IMG/VR virus record: IMGVR_UViG_3300031784_000006
Source: a virus
Lineage: Duplodnaviria > Caudoviricetes
Length of the DNA: 64,000 nt
Reading direction: 5' to 3' (one strand)
Every line of letters starts with the position of its first letter. The stretch's first letter is position 1. Position numbers and translations under genes: made by a program. Shown here one piece after another: positions 27,546 through 33,948 of the stretch. The notes under the pieces were generated by a model. That model was given only the letters and a program-made list of their open reading frames with translations. It had not been told where the DNA came from and did not search any database.

Positions 27546-27776
27546 TCAAGAACCTTCTTCGTGGTCGGTATGTATTCGTATTACATCAGCATCCACTTTA
27601 GATTCTACTGCAAACTTTATGGTTTCGTTATATGGAACTATCACTGCGTTTCTTTCTCCATCAGTAATAATAAATGATTCGCCATTTTCTACTCTTTCTA
27701 TTAGATTATCAAAATCTTCTTGAAACTCTTCGACTGTAAACTTTTGGAGATCTGAAAGTTCTGGATACATTTTCAT
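27546..27776 (-). CDS. Phd/YefM-like antitoxin-fold protein
   Basis: FTVEEFQEDFDNLIERVENGESFIITDGERNAVIVP resembles the Phd N-terminal pattern; start MKMYP. Confidence 0.5.
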   Translation of the reverse strand: MKMYPELSDLQKFTVEEFQEDFDNLIERVENGESFIITDGERNAVIVPYNETIKFAVESKVDADVIRIHTDHEEGS

Positions 27777-27793
27777 AAAGTGAAGTTTTATGA

Positions 27794-27868
27794 GTCGGAA
27801 TGACAGGATTCGAACCTGCGACATCTCGCTCCCAAAGCGAGTGCTCTACCAAACTGAGCTACATTCCG
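27794..27868 (-). tRNA. tRNA-Pro(UGG)
   Basis: CTCGC-TTTGGGA-GCGAG. Confidence 0.92.
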
Positions 27869-28825: not shown

Positions 28826-28911
28826 CGGAAGCGGTAGGATTTGAACCCACGAACGCTATTAACGTTGGTTGTTTTCAAGACAACTGCCATAAACCACTCG
28901 GCCACGCTTCC
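28826..28911 (-). tRNA. tRNA-Ser(UGA)
   Basis: GTTGT-CTTGAAA-ACAAC; long variable arm. Confidence 0.92.
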
Positions 28912-29652: not shown

Positions 29653-29982
29653 CTATCTTCCATAGTCATCTTGCAATCTTACTATATCATCTTCATCACA
29701 CTTACCAACCTGAACTTCAATAAAGGTCAGACCATCACTGTCGGCAGATGCTCTATGAACGGATTGTTTTTGTATATAATATGAAGTCTTTGAAGAAGTT
29801 GAGTATTCAGTTCCATCAATAATTACTTTTCCAGATCCATCAACAATAGTCCAGTACTCATCTCTATGATTGTGATACTGTAGAGAGAACTGCTGATAAG
29901 GATTAACTACGATTCTTTTAACTTTATAATTTTCCTCTTCTAGAAGAATTTCATAAGTTCCCCAAGGTCTTTTGTATATCAT
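29653..29982 (-). CDS. cupin mannose-6-phosphate isomerase-like
   Basis: RPWGTY; VKRIVV; SLQYHNHRDEYW; IEVQVG..DEDDIVRLQDDYGR. Confidence 0.85.
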   Translation of the reverse strand: MIYKRPWGTYEILLEEENYKVKRIVVNPYQQFSLQYHNHRDEYWTIVDGSGKVIIDGTEYSTSSKTSYYIQKQSVHRASADSDGLTFIEVQVGKCDEDDIVRLQDDYGR

Positions 29983-29999
29983 ATTTTTTACTTTATATA

Positions 30000-30071
30000 T
30001 GGGCGATGACGGATTCGAACCGCCGACCTACTCCGTGTAAAGGAGGCACTCTACCGCTGAGTTAATCGCCC
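30000..30071 (-). tRNA. tRNA-Val(UAC)
   Basis: Loop TTTACAC. Confidence 0.92.
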
Positions 30072-30074
30072 TCT

Positions 30075-30170
30075 AACGGGGGTGATCAAGTCCCCGACCT
30101 AAGCAAACTTAGGATTTAGTGAATCGGATATGATAGTCCCGATTCTTATGAAAGAACCTAAGTCCTTTCA
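30075..30170 (-). ncRNA. candidate structured RNA between tRNA-Asn and tRNA-Val
   Basis: Four hairpins (TGAAAG/CTTTCA, GAATCGG/CCGATTC, CCTAAG/CTTAGG, CGGGG/CCCCG). Confidence 0.45.
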
Positions 30171-30171
30171 A

Positions 30172-30244
30172 CTGGGGCGGCAGGGATCGAACCTGCGACC
30201 TAGATGTTAACAGCATCCCGCTACTACCGCTGAGCTACACCCCA
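30172..30244 (-). tRNA. tRNA-Asn(GUU)
   Basis: GGATG-CTGTTAA-CATCT; U1-A72, G73. Confidence 0.9.
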
Positions 30245-30249
30245 TTATA

Positions 30250-30319
30250 AGGAAGTTACTGGACTTACACCAGTTCAAAGGGCATTGTCTGCTTGTCTCG
30301 TTTCTTTGACTTAACTTCC
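30250..30319 (-). ncRNA. 70-nt tRNA-shaped RNA lacking a normal anticodon arm
   Basis: GGAAGTT/AACTTCC 7-bp acceptor; ACTGG-TGTAAGT-CCAGT T-like arm. Confidence 0.5.
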
Positions 30320-30357
30320 TTTGGCGTCTACCTAGTTAATCGCTAGGGACTACCAAG

Positions 30358-30429
30358 AGCGGAGTATCGGAATCGAACCGACGACATCTAACTTGGAAGG
30401 ATAGCGTTCTACCGCTGAACTAACTCCGC
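30358..30429 (-). tRNA. tRNA-Gly(UCC)
   Basis: Loop CTTCCAA. Confidence 0.92.
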
Positions 30430-30433
30430 AGGA

Positions 30434-30585
30434 GGAAAACACAAAACGTGGCGGTGTTTTGTGTTTTCCAAGTTATAGCAACTTCAGAATGGCGGTTCTT
30501 TAGTTGCTAGGTTTGGCATCTACAGAATGGCCGTTCCATAGATACCGATTTGGCAATTATAAAGTGGCGGTTCTATAATTGCCAA
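30434..30585 (-). ncRNA. array of four hairpins with conserved AC(C/G)GCCAY loops
   Basis: Stems of 12-14 bp; loops recur at 41, 38 and 37 nt intervals; G-U pairs favour the minus strand. Confidence 0.7.
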
Positions 30586-30643
30586 TTCCCAAAGTAGGAT
30601 TCGAACCTACAAGTTATAAACTTCTACCTTTTAGATTTTAGGA
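30586..30643 (-). ncRNA. 58-nt mini-tRNA/tRNA mimic
   Basis: TCCTAAA/TTTGGGA acceptor; TCTA-AAAGG-TAGA; short arm with TTTATAA; GTAGG-TTCGAAT-CCTAC. Confidence 0.6.
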
Positions 30644-30655
30644 TTTGTTTTTTAT

Positions 30656-30684
30656 ATAGTAACAAACTTTTGATAGTTTGTCAA
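30656..30684 (-). promoter_or_regulatory. sigma70 promoter driving the mini-tRNA/hairpin array
   Basis: TTGACA-N17-TACTAT; spacer contains the inverted repeat ACAAACT/AGTTTGT. Confidence 0.7.
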
Positions 30685-30685
30685 G

Positions 30686-30767
30686 TGTCGATGAGAGGAC
30701 TTGAACCTCCACAGATTAATCTACTGGAACCTAAACCCAGCGCGTCTACCAATTCCGCCACATCGAC
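30686..30767 (-). tRNA. tRNA-Leu(UAG)
   Basis: CTGGG-TTTAGGT-TCCAG; variable arm. Confidence 0.9.
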
Positions 30768-30819
30768 TTGATGGAGTAAGTGTGATATATCTCATAAGGA
30801 TATAACAGTGACTTACCCT

Positions 30820-30863
30820 CTATCACTTTTATATAGTAACAGACTCTAAAGAATCAGTCAAGC
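30820..30863 (-). repeat. 44-bp direct repeat copy A (contains a sigma70 promoter)
   Basis: 43/44 identical to 32201-32244; TTGACT-N17-TACTAT. Confidence 0.9.
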
Positions 30864-31110
30864 ATCTAAAGGAAAGAAGCATTCTGAAGAAACTAAAAGA
30901 AAAATGCGAGAAGCAGCACAATCTTATAGAACTCCAGAATATAGGAAAAAAATATCAGATAGAATGACTGGAAGAAAAATATCAGATGAAACTAGAGAAA
31001 GACAAAAAATTGCTGCTAAAAAAAGATGCGAAATGCAAAAACTTGATAGAATGGTAAAGCAATCAAATCAAGTAAATTTTTTAATTTGTTTATGGGAATC
31101 TGATTTTTAA
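30850..31110 (+). pseudogene. NUMOD3 homing-endonuclease remnant lacking a nuclease domain
   Basis: KGKKHSEETKRKM and GRKISDETRERQ motifs; in-frame stop at 30847-30849 within repeat A. Confidence 0.6.
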
Positions 31111-31692
31111 TCACCACGCCCAACTTACGGCTGAAAATCGACGACCACGAGTTGCTTCAGTTACGCCGTGTGGGTAGAGAAAAAGGCTGGGAAACATTAT
31201 GATGTCGCCTTTACCAAGAGGCACAATGTAGTCGTCCCAAAAATATAAATCTGCTCCTTCATAGTCATCATTCAAATTTAGAATGAATGAAAGCACTGGA
31301 ATTCCAGCGTCTTGTGTATTCCAGAGACTGTGAATGTGGTCGTGATGTTGTCTCATAATCTGACCAGGACTATAACGATTGAAACGAATCGCAGAGAACT
31401 TGTTCATAATCTGCATCGTTCGTTCACATTCAAAGTGATACTTGGCATTATATGCAGCACCTGCCTGAATCATAAAAGGCGTCAAGAGCGATTGATGTTC
31501 CGCAGTAATATTCTGAACATCAAGTTCCATTGTTTCTTCTGAACCAAATGTTCCCTGCACGGCATTATACCAACTATGAGGTCTCCATTCTTTCTTTTCA
31601 ATCTCATCTACGAGATAATCACATAGATTTGGCGGAATAATACCACGCTCTACGTGAATAAGGTCTTTCAGTTGTGTATTAGGATTGTTCAT
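31111..31692 (-). CDS. 2OG-Fe(II) oxygenase (prolyl-4-hydroxylase-like)
   Basis: RY..GQ.MRQHHD; LNLNDDYEGADL; KGDIIMFPS...HGV...G.R. Confidence 0.88.
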   Translation of the reverse strand: MNNPNTQLKDLIHVERGIIPPNLCDYLVDEIEKKEWRPHSWYNAVQGTFGSEETMELDVQNITAEHQSLLTPFMIQAGAAYNAKYHFECERTMQIMNKFSAIRFNRYSPGQIMRQHHDHIHSLWNTQDAGIPVLSFILNLNDDYEGADLYFWDDYIVPLGKGDIIMFPSLFLYPHGVTEATRGRRFSAVSWAW

Positions 31693-32201
31693 ACGCACCT
31701 CTCAAGTGGAAGATAAGTTAAAGAATTTATATCACCAAGACTACCCTTTGCCCAAGTATTAAAGGACAAACTGATTCGTTCTGTTTCTGATTGATTAGCA
31801 GGAACACTATGAGTCAGATTACTAGGGAAGATAATCAGTTCTCCTGCTTTCATTGGCAACAGAAATGTAGCACTATTAAAGTTATTGAACTTCTCACATT
31901 GAAGACTCACATCTCTTTGTGATTTACTACGAAACTGAATGGGTGGTAGTTGTTCATTAATCACAGGATACCATACTCCACTCACCAAACTATTTGGGTG
32001 AACGTGTTCGTGATGAGATTCTCCTTTACCAGACTTGTTAATCCACGATTGAGTAATTACAAGTTCATCAGTAGAGTTCATAATCTCTTTGACGAACTTA
32101 TAAATCTTGGATTGAATAAATGCTCTGATATTATTCAACTCTGGTTTATCAAGTACAAAAGTATCTTCTGACTGGCGATTGTAGTGAATCACATTACCCA
32201 C
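31689..32201 (-). CDS. putative 2OG-Fe(II) oxygenase, apparently 5'-truncated at repeat B (possible GTG start)
   Basis: QSWINK...HHEHVHPNSLVSGVWY; GELIIFPS.L.HSV..N..E.RISLSFN; no ATG before residue M(NSTD). Confidence 0.75.
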   Translation of the reverse strand: MGNVIHYNRQSEDTFVLDKPELNNIRAFIQSKIYKFVKEIMNSTDELVITQSWINKSGKGESHHEHVHPNSLVSGVWYPVINEQLPPIQFRSKSQRDVSLQCEKFNNFNSATFLLPMKAGELIIFPSNLTHSVPANQSETERISLSFNTWAKGSLGDINSLTYLPLERCV

Positions 32202-32244
32202 TATCACTTTTATATAGTAACAGACTCTAAAGAATCTGTCAAGC
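32201..32244 (-). repeat. 44-bp direct repeat copy B (contains a sigma70 promoter)
   Basis: TTGACA-N17-TACTAT; matches copy A. Confidence 0.9.
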
Positions 32245-32317
32245 GTCCTTTGAGAGATTCGAACTCCCGACACATAGGTTCGTAGCCTACTGCTCTGTTC
32301 CACTGAGCTAAAAGGAC
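32244..32317 (-). tRNA. tRNA-Arg(ACG)
   Basis: Loop CTACGAA. Confidence 0.92.
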
Positions 32318-32320
32318 AAG

Positions 32321-32392
32321 TTCTGAGAGTAGGATTCGAACCCACGAATGGCGGGACCAAAACCCGCTGCCTTACCACTTGGCGACCTCAGA
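32321..32392 (-). tRNA. tRNA-Gln(UUG)
   Basis: GCGGG-TTTTGGT-CCCGC. Confidence 0.9.
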
Positions 32393-32464
32393 AGCCCTCA
32401 GTCGGATTTGAACCAACGACCTACTCATTACTAGTGAGTTGCTCTACCACTGAGCTATAAGGGC
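32393..32464 (-). tRNA. tRNA-Thr(AGU)
   Basis: ACTCA-CTAGTAA-TGAGT. Confidence 0.9.
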
Positions 32465-32466
32465 GG

Positions 32467-32537
32467 GGTGCCGTGAGGGAATCGAACCCTCATATAGAGA
32501 ACCACAATCTCCTGTCTTACCATTAGACTAACGACAC
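32467..32537 (-). tRNA. tRNA-His(GUG)
   Basis: Loop TTGTGGT; C73; no encoded G-1. Confidence 0.85.
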
Positions 32538-32538
32538 A

Positions 32539-32612
32539 AGGCAGTAGATAGATTTGAACTATCGACCATAGGCATATGAGACCCGTGCTCTGCCAGACTG
32601 AGCTATACTGCC
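32539..32612 (-). tRNA. tRNA-CAU (Met-type), weak anticodon stem
   Basis: Loop CTCATAT; good acceptor, D and T arms. Confidence 0.75.
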
Positions 32613-32615
32613 AAA

Positions 32616-32704
32616 CGGAAGTGGTTGGATTCGAACCAACGGATGCCTATAAAGACATCGGCGGATTAGCAATCCACTGCATTAGACCTCTCTGCCACAC
32701 TTCC
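32616..32704 (-). tRNA. tRNA-Ser(GCU)
   Basis: Loop TTGCTAA; long variable arm. Confidence 0.92.
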
Positions 32705-32758
32705 TTAATGTTGCCTTCAATTAACCTAAGTGCGATTTAGGTTGCCTCAAGACAACAA

Positions 32759-32831
32759 TGGAAACAACTGGACTCGAACCAGTGGTCTTTCGATTATCAG
32801 TCGAATGCTTTACCAACTAAGCTATGTTTCC
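32759..32831 (-). tRNA. tRNA-Ile(GAU)
   Basis: TTCGA-CTGATAA-TCGAA. Confidence 0.92.
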
Positions 32832-32832
32832 T

Positions 32833-32907
32833 TGGTATTCCTAACGGGATTCGAACCCGTGCTGCCACCTTGAAAGGGTGGTGACCTAACCGCTAGTCGA
32901 TAGGAAC
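32833..32907 (-). tRNA. tRNA-Glu(UUC), CCA encoded
   Basis: CCACC-CTTTCAA-GGTGG. Confidence 0.92.
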
Positions 32908-32955
32908 TTAATGCTGACGGCATTCTGGATTATCAGCTCCAGCGCAAATCAGCAA

Positions 32956-33029
32956 CGACCCATACGGGATTTGAACCCGTGTTCTCCACCGTGACAGGGT
33001 GGCGTGATAGACCGCTACACTAATGGGTC
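32956..33029 (-). tRNA. tRNA-Asp(GUC)
   Basis: CCACC-CTGTCAC-GGTGG. Confidence 0.92.
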
Positions 33030-33033
33030 AAGG

Positions 33034-33105
33034 TGGGACATCTCGGATTCGAACCGAGGACTAATCGGTTAAAAGCCGAATACTCTACCGCTGAGTTAAT
33101 GTCCC
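33034..33105 (-). tRNA. tRNA-Lys(UUU)
   Basis: Loop CTTTTAA. Confidence 0.92.
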
Positions 33106-33127
33106 AATAATGTGATAGATATTCAGT

Positions 33128-33365
33128 TGTCGATGTGCTGGTGGTCTCTCAACCACCCTTTAAGAATACCACCTTTTGGGCTCTGGGGGGAGATTGGTGG
33201 ACGCTTAGGAAACTGGTCCAAGCAACAAAAAAGGGGAGGAAACTTTTGGTTTCTCTCCCCTGTCTTTTGCTTTTATGGATTACATCTTACATATGTCTTT
33301 CCATTTCAGCAAACAGGGGAGTACCCTCAATATGCCATTCGCGGCAATCGAGATTACTAATCTGT
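33128..33365 (-). ncRNA. candidate ~240-nt structured RNA (possibly manA-like)
   Basis: Multiple stems (CTCCCTGT-TTGCT/AGCAA-ACAGGGGAG; GGTGGT/ACCACC); no credible ORF; late promoter at 33410-33417. Confidence 0.45.
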
Positions 33366-33440
33366 TTGATGGTGATTTGGAAAGACATTGTTTTCGACCT
33401 AAGTGTGTTTATTTATAAGACTTTTATTTAAAAAAGTCAA

Positions 33441-33512
33441 CAGGCTCACCTGGAATCGAACCAGGGACGACCGCTTAGAAGGCGGTAGTTATATCCGCTT
33501 AACTATGAGCCC
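33441..33512 (-). tRNA. tRNA-Arg(UCU)
   Basis: ACCGC-CTTCTAA-GCGGT. Confidence 0.92.
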
Positions 33513-33537
33513 TTAATTTGTTTACCTGTTTATTCTA

Positions 33538-33948
33538 CTACTCCTTTTTACAGGTGTCAAGCCATGGAGCACATATCCTCATTTCTCCTCCAAGTTTCTT
33601 GCACTCTTCAGTATAACACTTAGAAGTATCTAAAGGCCTCTCTATCAACCTCGACAAAGGTACTCTAGGTGGATCAGAGTCTCTTGTCAAGCGTTCATAC
33701 TCTACGATTGCTCTGTCCACATCTCTCCAGACTCTCCTATCCACCACACCAGGGTCCTGAAGCAGCACATCGTTGATTACGGTGCCTGGGAACAGAACCC
33801 TCTGAACCTCGTCTAGGAGGTCCCAGAGGCGCTCCTGGGGCGCTCCTGTGCATTGGGAGAGGGTTGCTACGATACCGCTGAGTATGACGCCTATAAGGAT
33901 TATCTGCTTCTTATCTGGTTTCTTCTTTCCGAAGTTAAAATTAAACAT
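33538..33948 (-). CDS. hypothetical protein with N-terminal TM/lipoprotein-like segment
   Basis: IILIGVILSGIVATLSQC. Confidence 0.65.
   Translation of the reverse strand: MFNFNFGKKKPDKKQIILIGVILSGIVATLSQCTGAPQERLWDLLDEVQRVLFPGTVINDVLLQDPGVVDRRVWRDVDRAIVEYERLTRDSDPPRVPLSRLIERPLDTSKCYTEECKKLGGEMRICAPWLDTCKKE

What the first reader, a model, noticed from the sequence alone, without database searches (positions are those of the whole stretch)
30434..30585. Four-hairpin RNA with divergent stems but an invariant GCCA loop, bracketed by tRNA-like processing sites
Seen: four consecutive hairpins with a period of about 37-41 nt. On the minus strand the loops read ACCGCCAC, ACGGCCAU, ACCGCCAU, ACCGCCAC. 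The stems (e.g. the perfect 14-bp GGAAAACACAAAAC/GTTTTGTGTTTTCC and 12-bp TTGGCAATTATA/TATAATTGCCAA) differ in sequence but all pair. Hairpins 3 and 4 close through G-U pairs only on the minus strand. The array starts right after the 3' end of the mini-tRNA and ends 4 nt before tRNA-Gly, so tRNA end-processing would release a ~155-nt RNA. It has its own sigma70 promoter. Inference: a multivalent decoy or sponge sRNA. The loops could mimic the tRNA NCCA end (titrating a tRNA-end-binding protein, RNase P or a tRNA-targeting toxin), act as repeat-type antitoxin mimics as in type III TA systems, or base-pair with UGGCGG/UGGCCG targets as modular C-rich-loop sRNAs do. I know no described cyanophage RNA of this form.
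Basis: partly seen in the sequence, partly recalled or inferred. Interest (0 to 1): 0.85.

Follow-up and report, generated by a model that had tools for sequence, protein, structure and literature searches.

The report
Four-hairpin RNA in cyanophage tRNA operon
A freshwater cyanobacterial virus encodes, inside its tRNA gene cluster, a roughly 156-base RNA made of four hairpins that all display the same C-rich loop. It matches no catalogued RNA family and most likely serves as a four-fold bait for some host or phage factor, but nothing yet shows what it binds.

Summary
On the minus strand, 30585-30434 holds four abutting 36-nt hairpins (about 13-14 bp stems; 37/38/41-nt period) whose loops read A-C(C/G)GCCA-(C/U). 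Folding is far beyond chance, and G·U pairs favour the tRNA strand. Hairpins 1-3 are diverged paralogues with compensatory stem changes. Hairpin 4 has unrelated arms but the same loop, so the loop and the stem length are what is kept.

The array lies between a 58-nt tRNA-like element and tRNA-Gly. A TTGACA-17-TACTAT promoter lies upstream. tRNA processing should release about 156 nt; this is inferred, with no RNA data.

No Rfam family matches. No homologue was found in five related cyanophage genomes, 100 cyanophage contigs sharing the same tRNA-Gly, or 307 cyanobacterial genomes. Only near-identical copies exist: one IMG/VR contig and freshwater metagenome runs. There the array is invariant while flanks are 88-92% identical. 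One relative lacks the cassette.

In two other cyanophages the same slot, 4 nt before tRNA-Gly, holds an abiF-motif hairpin, a known RNA antitoxin.

Best reading: an early, processed, stable phage RNA acting as a multivalent bait, probably for a protein. Function is untested. This scan had noted the same stretch in an overlapping window, not on other DNA.

The parts
30685..30767 (-). tRNA-Leu(UAG), upstream neighbour; its 3' end abuts the -35 box of the cassette promoter
   Evidence: ARAGORN; Rfam tRNA 54.3 bits
30656..30684 (-). sigma70-type promoter TTGACA-17-TACTAT with TG extension; its spacer is itself a small palindrome
   Evidence: Consensus scan, 10 of 12 matches; the spacer hairpin appears in the fold. 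Function is inferred.
30586..30643 (-). 58-nt tRNA-like element with acceptor stem, short D region, collapsed anticodon arm and perfect T arm; the presumed RNase P/RNase Z handle that defines the 5' end of the hairpin RNA
   Evidence: Rfam tRNA model 23.5 bits, E 0.015, below the 29-bit cut-off; not called by ARAGORN; cloverleaf-like fold
30550..30585 (-). hairpin 1: 14-bp stem including one G·U pair, loop ACCGCCAC
   Evidence: R1 model 48.0 bits
30513..30548 (-). hairpin 2: 13-bp stem with three G·U pairs, loop (A)CGGCCA(U)
   Evidence: -16.4 kcal/mol on minus versus -8.9 on plus; R1 43.1 bits
30475..30510 (-). hairpin 3: 8 bp + AA/GA internal loop + 4 bp, loop (A)CCGCCA(U)
   Evidence: R1 44.6 bits
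30434..30469 (-). hairpin 4: perfect 14-bp stem unrelated in sequence to hairpins 1-3, loop ACCGCCAC
   Evidence: R1 45.1 bits
30430..30433 (-). 4-nt linker UCCU; the predicted 3' tail after RNase P cuts at the 5' end of tRNA-Gly
   Evidence: sequence; processing is inferred
30357..30429 (-). tRNA-Gly(UCC), the downstream processing signal
   Evidence: ARAGORN; Rfam 66.5 bits

Best explanation
The element is a phage-encoded small stable RNA of about 156 nt (30585-30430, minus strand).

Proposed steps:
1. It is transcribed early by host RNA polymerase. Transcription starts at the promoter at 30684-30656, and also comes by read-through from the tRNA-Leu promoter upstream.
2. RNase Z cuts after the discriminator of the 58-nt tRNA-like element.
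3. RNase P cuts at the 5' end of tRNA-Gly.
4. The product is four stiff 13-14-bp stalks packed 1-5 nt apart. The 5' end is flush and the 3' tail is 4 nt, which should resist exonucleases.
5. Each stalk displays the same single-stranded loop, A-C(C/G)GCCA-(C/U).
6. The RNA acts in trans as a four-valent bait for a factor that reads this loop on a helix. Most likely this is a protein, which the RNA titrates during infection. The favoured sub-case is a host RNA-binding defence or toxin protein, as RNA antitoxins and their phage mimics do.

Shown here: the structure, the strand, selection on the loop and on stem pairing, the cassette boundaries, the patchy distribution and the absence from Rfam.

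Inferred: transcription, processing, stability, action in trans and the identity of the partner.
For: Structure and strand:
- Fold z = -9.1 on the minus strand.
- Four G·U pairs make hp1 and hp2 markedly weaker on the plus strand.

Selection:
- 92.9% of stem positions pair and 11 of 14 pairs show compensatory changes among the four units.
- hp4 shares only 2-5 of 14 arm bases with the others, but 6-8 of 8 loop bases and the same stem length.

Conservation against flanks:
- The array is 100% identical in IMG/VR contig L134, where neighbouring segments are 88-92% identical.
- The 311-nt unitig 30401-30711 has 0 differences in two metagenome runs and 2 in two others. Neither difference touches a loop or a stem pair.

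Uniqueness:
- A motif-blind scan of about 1.06 Mb of cyanophage DNA looked for three or more neighbouring hairpins sharing a loop 6-mer. Apart from a tRNA T-loop cluster and one hit in L675 that I judged a chance match, it found only this array and its L134 copy.

Expression context:
- A near-consensus promoter lies upstream, and there is no terminator in 29900-31000.
- The tRNA-like element and tRNA-Gly abut the array.

Accessory character:
- Relative L659 joins the leader (30835-30769) directly to tRNA-Gly and lacks tRNA-Leu, the promoter, the tRNA-like element and the array.
- The slot upstream of this tRNA-Gly has 94 distinct upstream sequences among 119 contigs.

Precedent for decoy hairpins in this slot:
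- S-CREM1 and contig L635 carry an abiF-motif hairpin (52.2 and 50.7 bits) ending 4 nt before the orthologous tRNA-Gly.
- abiF-motif hairpins of 33-35 nt, in tandem, neutralise the AbiF toxin by direct binding. Stem structure matters there, not stem sequence (PMC12373285).
- Phage-borne RNA antitoxin mimics are known (pseudo-ToxI, PMC3475682).
Against: - No partner is identified.
- No hairpin with this loop was found in 5 + 151 host-family genomes or in 150 further cyanobacterial genomes. This test has little power: the genuine abiF motif also reached its cut-off in none of 151 host-family genomes.
- No homologue exists outside one closely related phage population. All covariation therefore comes from four paralogues in one genome.
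- There is no transcript evidence.
- High identity between phages could reflect recent cassette transfer rather than purifying selection.
- A conserved loop on a helix would equally suit a processing nuclease acting in cis.
Confidence: 0.4

Rival explanations
1. Base-pairing sponge or regulator. The four C-rich loops pair with UGGCGG or UGGCCG in a host or phage RNA. The target could be a host small RNA, a messenger, or unfolded or cleaved class II tRNA. [quoted passage not shown]
For: - The loops are 6-8 nt, single-stranded and present four times.
- A spacer released from a tRNA precursor acting as a small-RNA sponge is an established precedent (Lalaouna et al. 2015, as cited and used in PMC6191717).
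- On minus-strand RNAs of the window, the complement (A/G)UGGC(G/C)G occurs only three times. Two of these are at the same place (positions 7-13, D arm) of tRNA-Leu, matching the CCGCCA loops, and tRNA-Ser(UGA), matching the CGGCCA loop.
Against: - No target is identified.
- The D-arm sites are buried in folded tRNA.
- tRNAs are the G+C-rich part of an A+T-rich genome, so a 7-mer hit there is not surprising.
- Long perfect stems and strict stem length are not needed for a seed-pairing sponge.
- No host RNA with the motif was examined.
Confidence: 0.2
2. Purely cis-acting operon furniture. The hairpins punctuate, insulate or stabilise the polycistronic tRNA precursor. The loop is kept because a processing enzyme recognises it. 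The RNA has no function after release.
For: - The array sits exactly between two tRNA-type structures in a long operon without terminators.
- Several other structured spacers lie between neighbouring tRNAs.
- Other cyanophages have single hairpins in the same slot.
Against: - Four copies of a sequence-specific loop are not needed for exonuclease blocks.
- Most of the other 119 contigs manage with a promoter, a tRNA or one unrelated hairpin in this slot.
- A relative lacks the cassette altogether.
- The unrelated hp4 has kept the same loop.
Confidence: 0.2
3. DNA-level element. The palindromes act as extruded or single-stranded DNA hairpins, for example as a recombination hotspot, a replication signal or a hairpin promoter. 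Alternatively the 8-bp core is a repeated protein-binding site on duplex DNA.
For: - The cassette is an insertion/deletion unit flanked by repeated promoters, as in the promoter-stem-loop cassettes of T4-type phages (PMC2839356, PMC4122927).
- hp1 also reads as TTGGCA-18-TATAAT on both strands.
Against: - G·U pairs make hp2 and hp1 much weaker on the other strand.
- Compensatory stem changes are not explained by duplex-DNA binding.
- In those T4-type cassettes the stem is conserved and the loop is free (PMC4122927), the reverse of what is seen here.
- Only hp1 looks like a promoter.
Confidence: 0.05

Closest known systems
Phage T4 stable RNAs 'species I and II' (RNA C and RNA D) in the T4 tRNA gene region
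   Same: [quoted passage not shown] From my own knowledge, they are co-transcribed with the tRNAs, cut out by tRNA-processing enzymes, and have no known function.
   Different: No sequence similarity: blastn of the cassette against 50,697 phage records gave only chance hits, none to T4-like coliphages. The four-hairpin shared-loop design is not described for the T4 RNAs. The T4 sequences themselves were not compared structurally here.
abiF-motif RNA antitoxin (Rfam RF03085; RCd22 of C. difficile) and other type III antitoxins (ToxI), with phage mimics (pseudo-ToxI)
   Same: Units are 33-37 nt and arranged in tandem. They bind and neutralise a toxic RNA-binding protein, and stem structure rather than stem sequence matters (PMC12373285). 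Phages carry mimics (PMC3475682). An abiF hairpin occupies the same position, 4 nt before the orthologous tRNA-Gly, in S-CREM1 and L635.
   Different: There is no RF03085 hit even at E <= 10. Here the loop is conserved and the stems are free; abiF keeps stem and internal-loop bases, and ToxI repeats are near-identical pseudoknots. No toxin gene is adjacent, and no host counterpart was found.
Multi-hairpin protein sponges (CsrB/RsmZ with GGA loops) and tandem iron-responsive elements
   Same: Several hairpins with divergent stems present one short loop motif to titrate or recruit a protein.
   Different: The loop motif differs (C(C/G)GCCA, not GGA or CAGUGN). To my knowledge cyanobacteria lack CsrA (not checked here). 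No protein partner is known.
3' external transcribed spacer of glyW-cysT-leuZ (E. coli), a tRNA-precursor spacer that sponges small RNAs
   Same: It is a by-product of tRNA-operon processing with a trans-acting titrating role.
   Different: That spacer pairs through a linear stretch and needs Hfq. Here there are four loop motifs on long stems, and no target RNA is known.
Promoter-stem-loop cassettes (PeSLs) of T4-type phages
   Same: Repeated early promoters next to stem-loops lie in a plastic region and are associated with insertions and deletions between relatives (PMC2839356, PMC4122927).
   Different: In those cassettes the stem sequence is conserved and the loop is free, and there is one stem-loop per promoter. 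The four hairpins are therefore cargo, not the shuffling motif.

Membership tests
Any Rfam 15 family | Covariance-model score at or above the family's gathering cut-off | tested here: not met
   Gathering scan of the whole window and a permissive scan of 30300-30800 at E <= 10. Over the hairpins there was only a 17-bit mir-290 chance hit and a 16.5-bit snR50 chance hit partly overlapping hp1.
abiF RNA (RF03085) | Match to the 37-position model at 37 bits or more | tested here: not met
   No hit at E <= 10. The same search scores the S-CREM1 and L635 hairpins at 52.2 and 50.7 bits.
abiF RNA (RF03085) | Lies upstream of an Abi_2/AbiF toxin gene (in cellular and prophage loci) | tested here: not met
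   The neighbours are tRNAs. The ten largest nearby ORFs, scanned against Pfam, are 2OG-Fe(II) oxygenases, a cupin, a ferritin-like protein, a tail lysozyme and similar. Smaller ORFs were not scanned.
Type III antitoxin of the ToxI kind | Near-identical direct repeats (36-45 nt) | tested here: not met
   Arms are 14-71% identical between units. The units are plain hairpins.
Type III antitoxin of the ToxI kind | Cut into units by, and assembled with, a cognate endoribonuclease toxin | not testable with these tools
   Needs biochemistry. No toxN/abiQ-like gene is among the scanned neighbours.
T4-type 'species I/II' stable RNAs | Encoded within the phage tRNA cluster and flanked by tRNA-type processing sites | tested here: met
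   a tRNA-like element directly 5', and tRNA-Gly 4 nt 3'
T4-type 'species I/II' stable RNAs | Sequence or structure homology to T4 rnaC/rnaD | tested here: not met
   blastn against all phage records at E <= 10 gave no T4-group hit. No structural comparison was done.
T4-type 'species I/II' stable RNAs | Accumulates as a discrete stable RNA in infected cells | not testable with these tools
   No RNA run holding the array was listed.
CsrB/RsmZ-type sponge | Repeated GGA motifs in hairpin loops | tested here: not met
   The loops read A-C(C/G)GCCA-Y.
PeSL promoter-stem-loop cassette | Conserved stem sequence with a free loop, paired with an early promoter | tested here: not met
   Here the stems vary and the loop is fixed. 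PeSL description from PMC4122927.
tRNA (RF00005), for the hairpins themselves | Cloverleaf match | tested here: not met
   Only the element at 30586-30643 gives a weak tRNA hit (23.5 bits). The hairpins give none.

The most novel reading that the evidence does not exclude
The array is an RNA-based anti-defence device. It would be a four-valent mimic of the RNA ligand (antitoxin hairpin or target loop) of a host RNA-binding immune effector. It would be made early and cut out of the phage tRNA operon by the host's own RNase P and RNase Z. Solitary abiF hairpins sit in the same slot in other cyanophages. Together these would make the position just upstream of tRNA-Gly a swap-in site for RNA decoys in T4-like cyanophages.
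Probability: 0.15. Interest if true: 0.8.

Novelty: new variant of a known kind. Interest (0 to 1): 0.5.

Why it matters
Phage tRNA clusters are usually annotated as tRNAs only. The non-tRNA RNAs embedded in them have remained without function since the T4 species I/II RNAs.

This element is a clean case for study:
- It is short and has sharply defined predicted ends.
- Its design (four rigid stalks, one fixed loop) points to a multivalent binding function.
- It can be tested with simple loop-swap mutants.

If the partner is a host defence protein, this would be, as far as I know, the first RNA anti-defence described for cyanophages. It would also show that tRNA-processing enzymes are used as a delivery system for such RNAs. 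If the partner is an RNA, it would extend the 'tRNA spacer as sponge' idea to viruses. Either way, the slot in front of tRNA-Gly(UCC) is a natural place to look for further phage RNAs.

Tried and rejected
Searches for copies elsewhere:
- Loop-pair and loop-triplet patterns in IMG/VR returned mostly Gly/Ser-rich coding repeats. Only L134 is a true copy.
It returned satellites and coding repeats with a similar 11-mer, and none is a hairpin array of this kind.
- A scan for the T arm of the tRNA-like element found ordinary tRNAs only.
- No whole genome is held for the window.

Model R1:
- It found nothing else in the window (next best 15 bits).
- It found nothing in five related cyanophage genomes or in 100 contigs sharing tRNA-Gly.
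- It gave only single chance-level hits in GC-rich coding DNA of 307 cyanobacterial genomes.

RNA evidence:
- No RNA holder of the array was listed.
- Six RNA runs hold 0.12-0.15 of the words of the wider 451-nt stretch, probably the tRNAs.

Weak or failed items:
- One contig in run X3 that skips 30432 to 30688 is a single low-depth record with unknown letters between. I treat it as a hint only.
- Host rRNA could not be retrieved from the four draft host-family genomes tried.

Loop look-alikes that I judge to be at chance level:
- The 8-mer ACACCGCC of hp4 also occurs in host RNase P RNA. From memory, it also occurs in the 16S decoding-site strand.
- CCGCCA equals the mature 3' end of tRNAs with G1G2 and G73 (from memory).
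- CCGCCA is also part of the abiF consensus stem.

Readings rejected:
- Intrinsic terminators: none in 29900-31000.
- CRISPR repeats or RNA anti-CRISPRs: the stems differ between units.
- ToxI-type repeats: the units are not near-identical.
- A plus-strand AGGAGG followed by a 20-codon GTG frame through hp4 and hp3: this does not explain the compensatory pairing.
- The TerD/Y-RNA-like hairpin family noted elsewhere in this scan: it has a different conserved internal-loop handle, and I did not look for such a protein gene here.

Full report
**What is there.** The window is part of a T4-like cyanomyovirus. It carries 21 tRNA genes, the wcaG and PhotoRC-II RNAs, and a group I intron. It resembles freshwater and estuarine Synechococcus phages only in patches. 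All tRNAs are on the minus strand.

Read on that strand, 30585-30434 consists of four abutting hairpins: hp1 30585-30550, hp2 30548-30513, hp3 30510-30475 and hp4 30469-30434. All four fit one register of 14 nt + 8 nt + 14 nt without gaps. Linkers are 1, 2 and 5 nt, giving a period of 37/38/41. The loops read ACCGCCAC, ACGGCCAU, ACCGCCAU and ACCGCCAC.

**More than chance, and on which strand.**
- The 255 nt from the promoter to tRNA-Gly fold at -83.8 kcal/mol, z = -9.1. The four hairpins are independent in both the MFE and the centroid structure. The opposite strand gives z = -5.9 and does not keep four separate hairpins.
- Two loop motifs at this spacing occur twice, against 0.02 expected.
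- There are four G·U pairs, three in hp2 and one in hp1. They make these hairpins clearly weaker on the plus strand: -16.4 versus -8.9 and -14.9 versus -11.8 kcal/mol. hp3 and hp4 are neutral.
- A motif-blind scan covered about 1.06 Mb of cyanophage DNA on both strands. It looked for three or more local hairpins within 220 nt that share a loop 6-mer. Besides a cluster of tRNA T loops and one hit in L675 that I judged a chance match, it found only this array and its copy in L134.

**What is conserved.**
- On the alignment of the four units, 92.9% of stem positions pair, against 35-46% when partners are slid by 1-3 columns. Eleven of 14 pairs carry changes on both sides, reached by 0 of 500 shuffles.
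- The structure was derived from these same sequences and there are only four, so this is supportive rather than proof.
- The arms of hp1-3 are 50-71% identical. They are diverged tandem duplicates that kept pairing through compensatory and G·U changes.
- The arms of hp4 are at chance identity (2-5 of 14). Yet hp4 has the same stem length and 6-8 of 8 loop bases.
- So the loop sequence and the stalk geometry are kept, and the stem sequence is not.

**Context and predicted RNA.**
- A TTGACA-17-TACTAT promoter with a TG extension lies at 30684-30656, directly after tRNA-Leu. A second, similar promoter lies at 30861-30833. There is no terminator-like site in 29900-31000.
- A 58-nt element at 30643-30586 has a 7-bp acceptor stem, a perfect T arm and a collapsed anticodon arm. 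It scores 23.5 bits on the tRNA model, below the 29-bit cut-off, and ARAGORN does not call it.
- hp1 begins at the next base. hp4 ends 4 nt (UCCU) before tRNA-Gly.
- RNase P and RNase Z accept acceptor/T-arm substrates. This is established knowledge and was not tested here. By inference they would release a 156-nt RNA (30585-30430) with a flush 5' end and a 4-nt 3' tail.
- No RNA run holding the array was listed, so transcription and processing remain inferred.

**Known families.** No Rfam 15 family matches the hairpins, either at gathering thresholds or at E <= 10. blastn of the cassette against 50,697 phage records gives only chance hits.

**Distribution.**
- A covariance model of the unit (R1) scores the four units at 43-48 bits. 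The next hit in the window scores 15 bits.
- R1 finds nothing in the complete genomes of Sf-FS3, S-CREM1, DSL-LC02, DSL-LC03 and S-SRM01.
- It finds nothing in 100 IMG/VR contigs that share the same tRNA-Gly.
- It gives only single chance-level hits in 5 + 151 genomes of the presumed host family and 150 further cyanobacteria. The host family was chosen because the phage PsbA is 92-94% identical to Cyanobium and Synechococcus proteins.
- The only true copies are near-identical. In IMG/VR contig L134, 30249-30774 is 98.3% identical and the array is 100% identical, while neighbouring segments are 88-92% identical.
- Fourteen DNA runs, labelled freshwater, lake-water or 'fungus' metagenomes, hold at least 0.63 of the sampled words.
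- In four runs from four studies, a 309- or 311-nt unitig within 30401-30711 has 0 differences (two runs) or 2 differences (two runs). One difference is in the unpaired foot of hp2 and one in the tRNA-like element.
- This fits purifying selection. Recent spread of a cassette would look the same.

**The cassette is accessory.**
- Relative L659 is 84-90% identical in coding regions. It joins the leader 30835-30769 (100% identical) directly to tRNA-Gly. It lacks tRNA-Leu, the second promoter, the tRNA-like element and the array.
- Among 119 IMG/VR contigs with this tRNA-Gly, the 40 nt upstream take 94 different forms: promoters, other tRNAs and assorted hairpins.
- Repeated early promoters beside variable cargo recall the promoter-stem-loop cassettes of T4-type phages (PMC2839356, PMC4122927). 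In those cassettes the stem is conserved and the loop is free, the reverse of what is seen here.

**A telling neighbour case.**
- In S-CREM1 (annotated; 52.2 bits) and in contig L635 (50.7 bits), an abiF-motif hairpin (RF03085) ends 4 nt before the orthologous tRNA-Gly. hp4 ends at the same distance from tRNA-Gly in this window.
- The abiF motif is now known to be the RNA antitoxin of the HEPN toxin AbiF. Two 33-35-nt hairpins in tandem bind the toxin dimer, and compensatory stem mutations keep activity (PMC12373285).
- Phages are known to carry RNA antitoxin mimics (pseudo-ToxI, PMC3475682).
- The four hairpins are not abiF motifs. The parallel is in unit size, tandem hairpin design, irrelevance of stem sequence, patchy occurrence, early expression and genomic slot. 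That is why I favour a protein-bait reading.
- The failure to find a host counterpart carries little weight. The genuine abiF motif also reached its cut-off in none of 151 host-family genomes.

**Alternatives.**
- A base-pairing sponge is plausible. Processed tRNA-operon spacers can sponge small RNAs (3'ETS of leuZ). On minus-strand RNAs of the window, the loop complement (A/G)UGGC(G/C)G occurs only in the D arm of tRNA-Leu (matching the CCGCCA loops), in the D arm of tRNA-Ser(UGA) (matching the CGGCCA loop) and in PhotoRC-II. These sites are buried in folded tRNA. tRNAs are also the G+C-rich islands of this genome, so I rate this as a lead only.
- A purely cis role in processing or stability does not explain four copies of a fixed loop, or the cassette's absence from relatives.
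- A DNA-level role is disfavoured by the G·U asymmetry and the compensatory changes. hp1 does also read as TTGGCA-18-TATAAT on both strands.
Proteins that act on the CCA end need a free 3' end, and the phage tRNAs do not encode CCA.

**Verdict.**
- It is a structured RNA element with selection on a loop motif and on stalk geometry. It is embedded in a phage tRNA operon, belongs to no described family, and so far occurs in one freshwater cyanophage population.
- In kind, the closest known things are the T4 tRNA-region stable RNAs (PMC2330249) and multi-hairpin RNA baits or antitoxins.
- My best mechanism is an early, processed, stable, four-valent bait, probably for a protein. I hold this at about 0.4. 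Its anti-defence version stands at about 0.15.
- Interest is moderate. The element is clean and testable, but it is narrowly distributed and has no functional evidence.

Noticed in passing
L002:1900-1936 (S-CREM1) and L635:11169-11205: A solitary abiF-motif hairpin (RF03085, 52.2 and 50.7 bits) ends 4 nt before the orthologous tRNA-Gly(UCC) in two other cyanophages. It has no abiF gene beside it, so it is a candidate phage decoy of an RNA antitoxin. The motif reached its cut-off in none of 151 host-family genomes; there was one 33-bit hit, in G055.
   Followed up: partly
window 30550-30585, both strands: Hairpin 1 also reads as a near-consensus sigma70 promoter (TTGGCA-18-TATAAT, 11 of 12) on both strands, because it is an A+T-rich palindrome. 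On the minus strand it would start transcription at about the first base of hairpin 2.
   Followed up: no
window 30755-30761 (tRNA-Leu) and 28899-28905 (tRNA-Ser UGA): The only minus-strand 7-mers complementary to the hairpin loops, apart from one in PhotoRC-II at about 5698, lie at positions 7-13 (D arm) of the two class II tRNAs. GUGGCGG is in tRNA-Leu and GUGGCCG in tRNA-Ser, matching the two loop variants.
   Followed up: partly
L659:5816-5931 versus window 30835-30384: A related IMG/VR phage joins the leader that precedes tRNA-Leu in the window directly to tRNA-Gly. It lacks 30768-30431. It also replaces about 2.7 kb (30835-33562, holding tRNAs and two 2OG-Fe(II) oxygenase genes) with about 300 nt.
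   Followed up: partly
window 30250-30356 and 30075-30170, minus strand: Two further structured non-tRNA spacers lie between tRNA-Gly and tRNA-Asn and between tRNA-Asn and tRNA-Val. The first is closed by a GGAAGUU/AACUUCC helix. Neither has an Rfam match at gathering thresholds.
   Followed up: no
window 27546-27824, minus strand: A 92-aa ORF inside the tRNA cluster has a sub-threshold Phd/YefM antitoxin hit (24.6 bits, cut-off 29.8). Related phages annotate Phd-like antitoxins in the same region.
   Followed up: no
window 30714-30727 versus L134 (alignment A1, columns 64-78): The variable arm of tRNA-Leu differs between the window and L134 at several positions on both sides of its stem, apparently compensatory. 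The rest of the 430 nt is almost invariant.
   Followed up: no
window 30430-30495, plus strand: AGGAGG followed after 12 nt by a GTG-initiated 20-codon frame runs antisense through hairpins 4 and 3. It is probably fortuitous.
   Followed up: no
window, 3' flanks of tRNA-Leu (30684), tRNA-Arg ACG (32242), tRNA-Lys (33031) and tRNA-Arg UCU (33440): Several tRNAs are followed at once by TTGAC(A/C/T). This suggests that promoters begin directly after the tRNA 3' ends, so the cluster would be a chain of short promoter-tRNA units.
   Followed up: no
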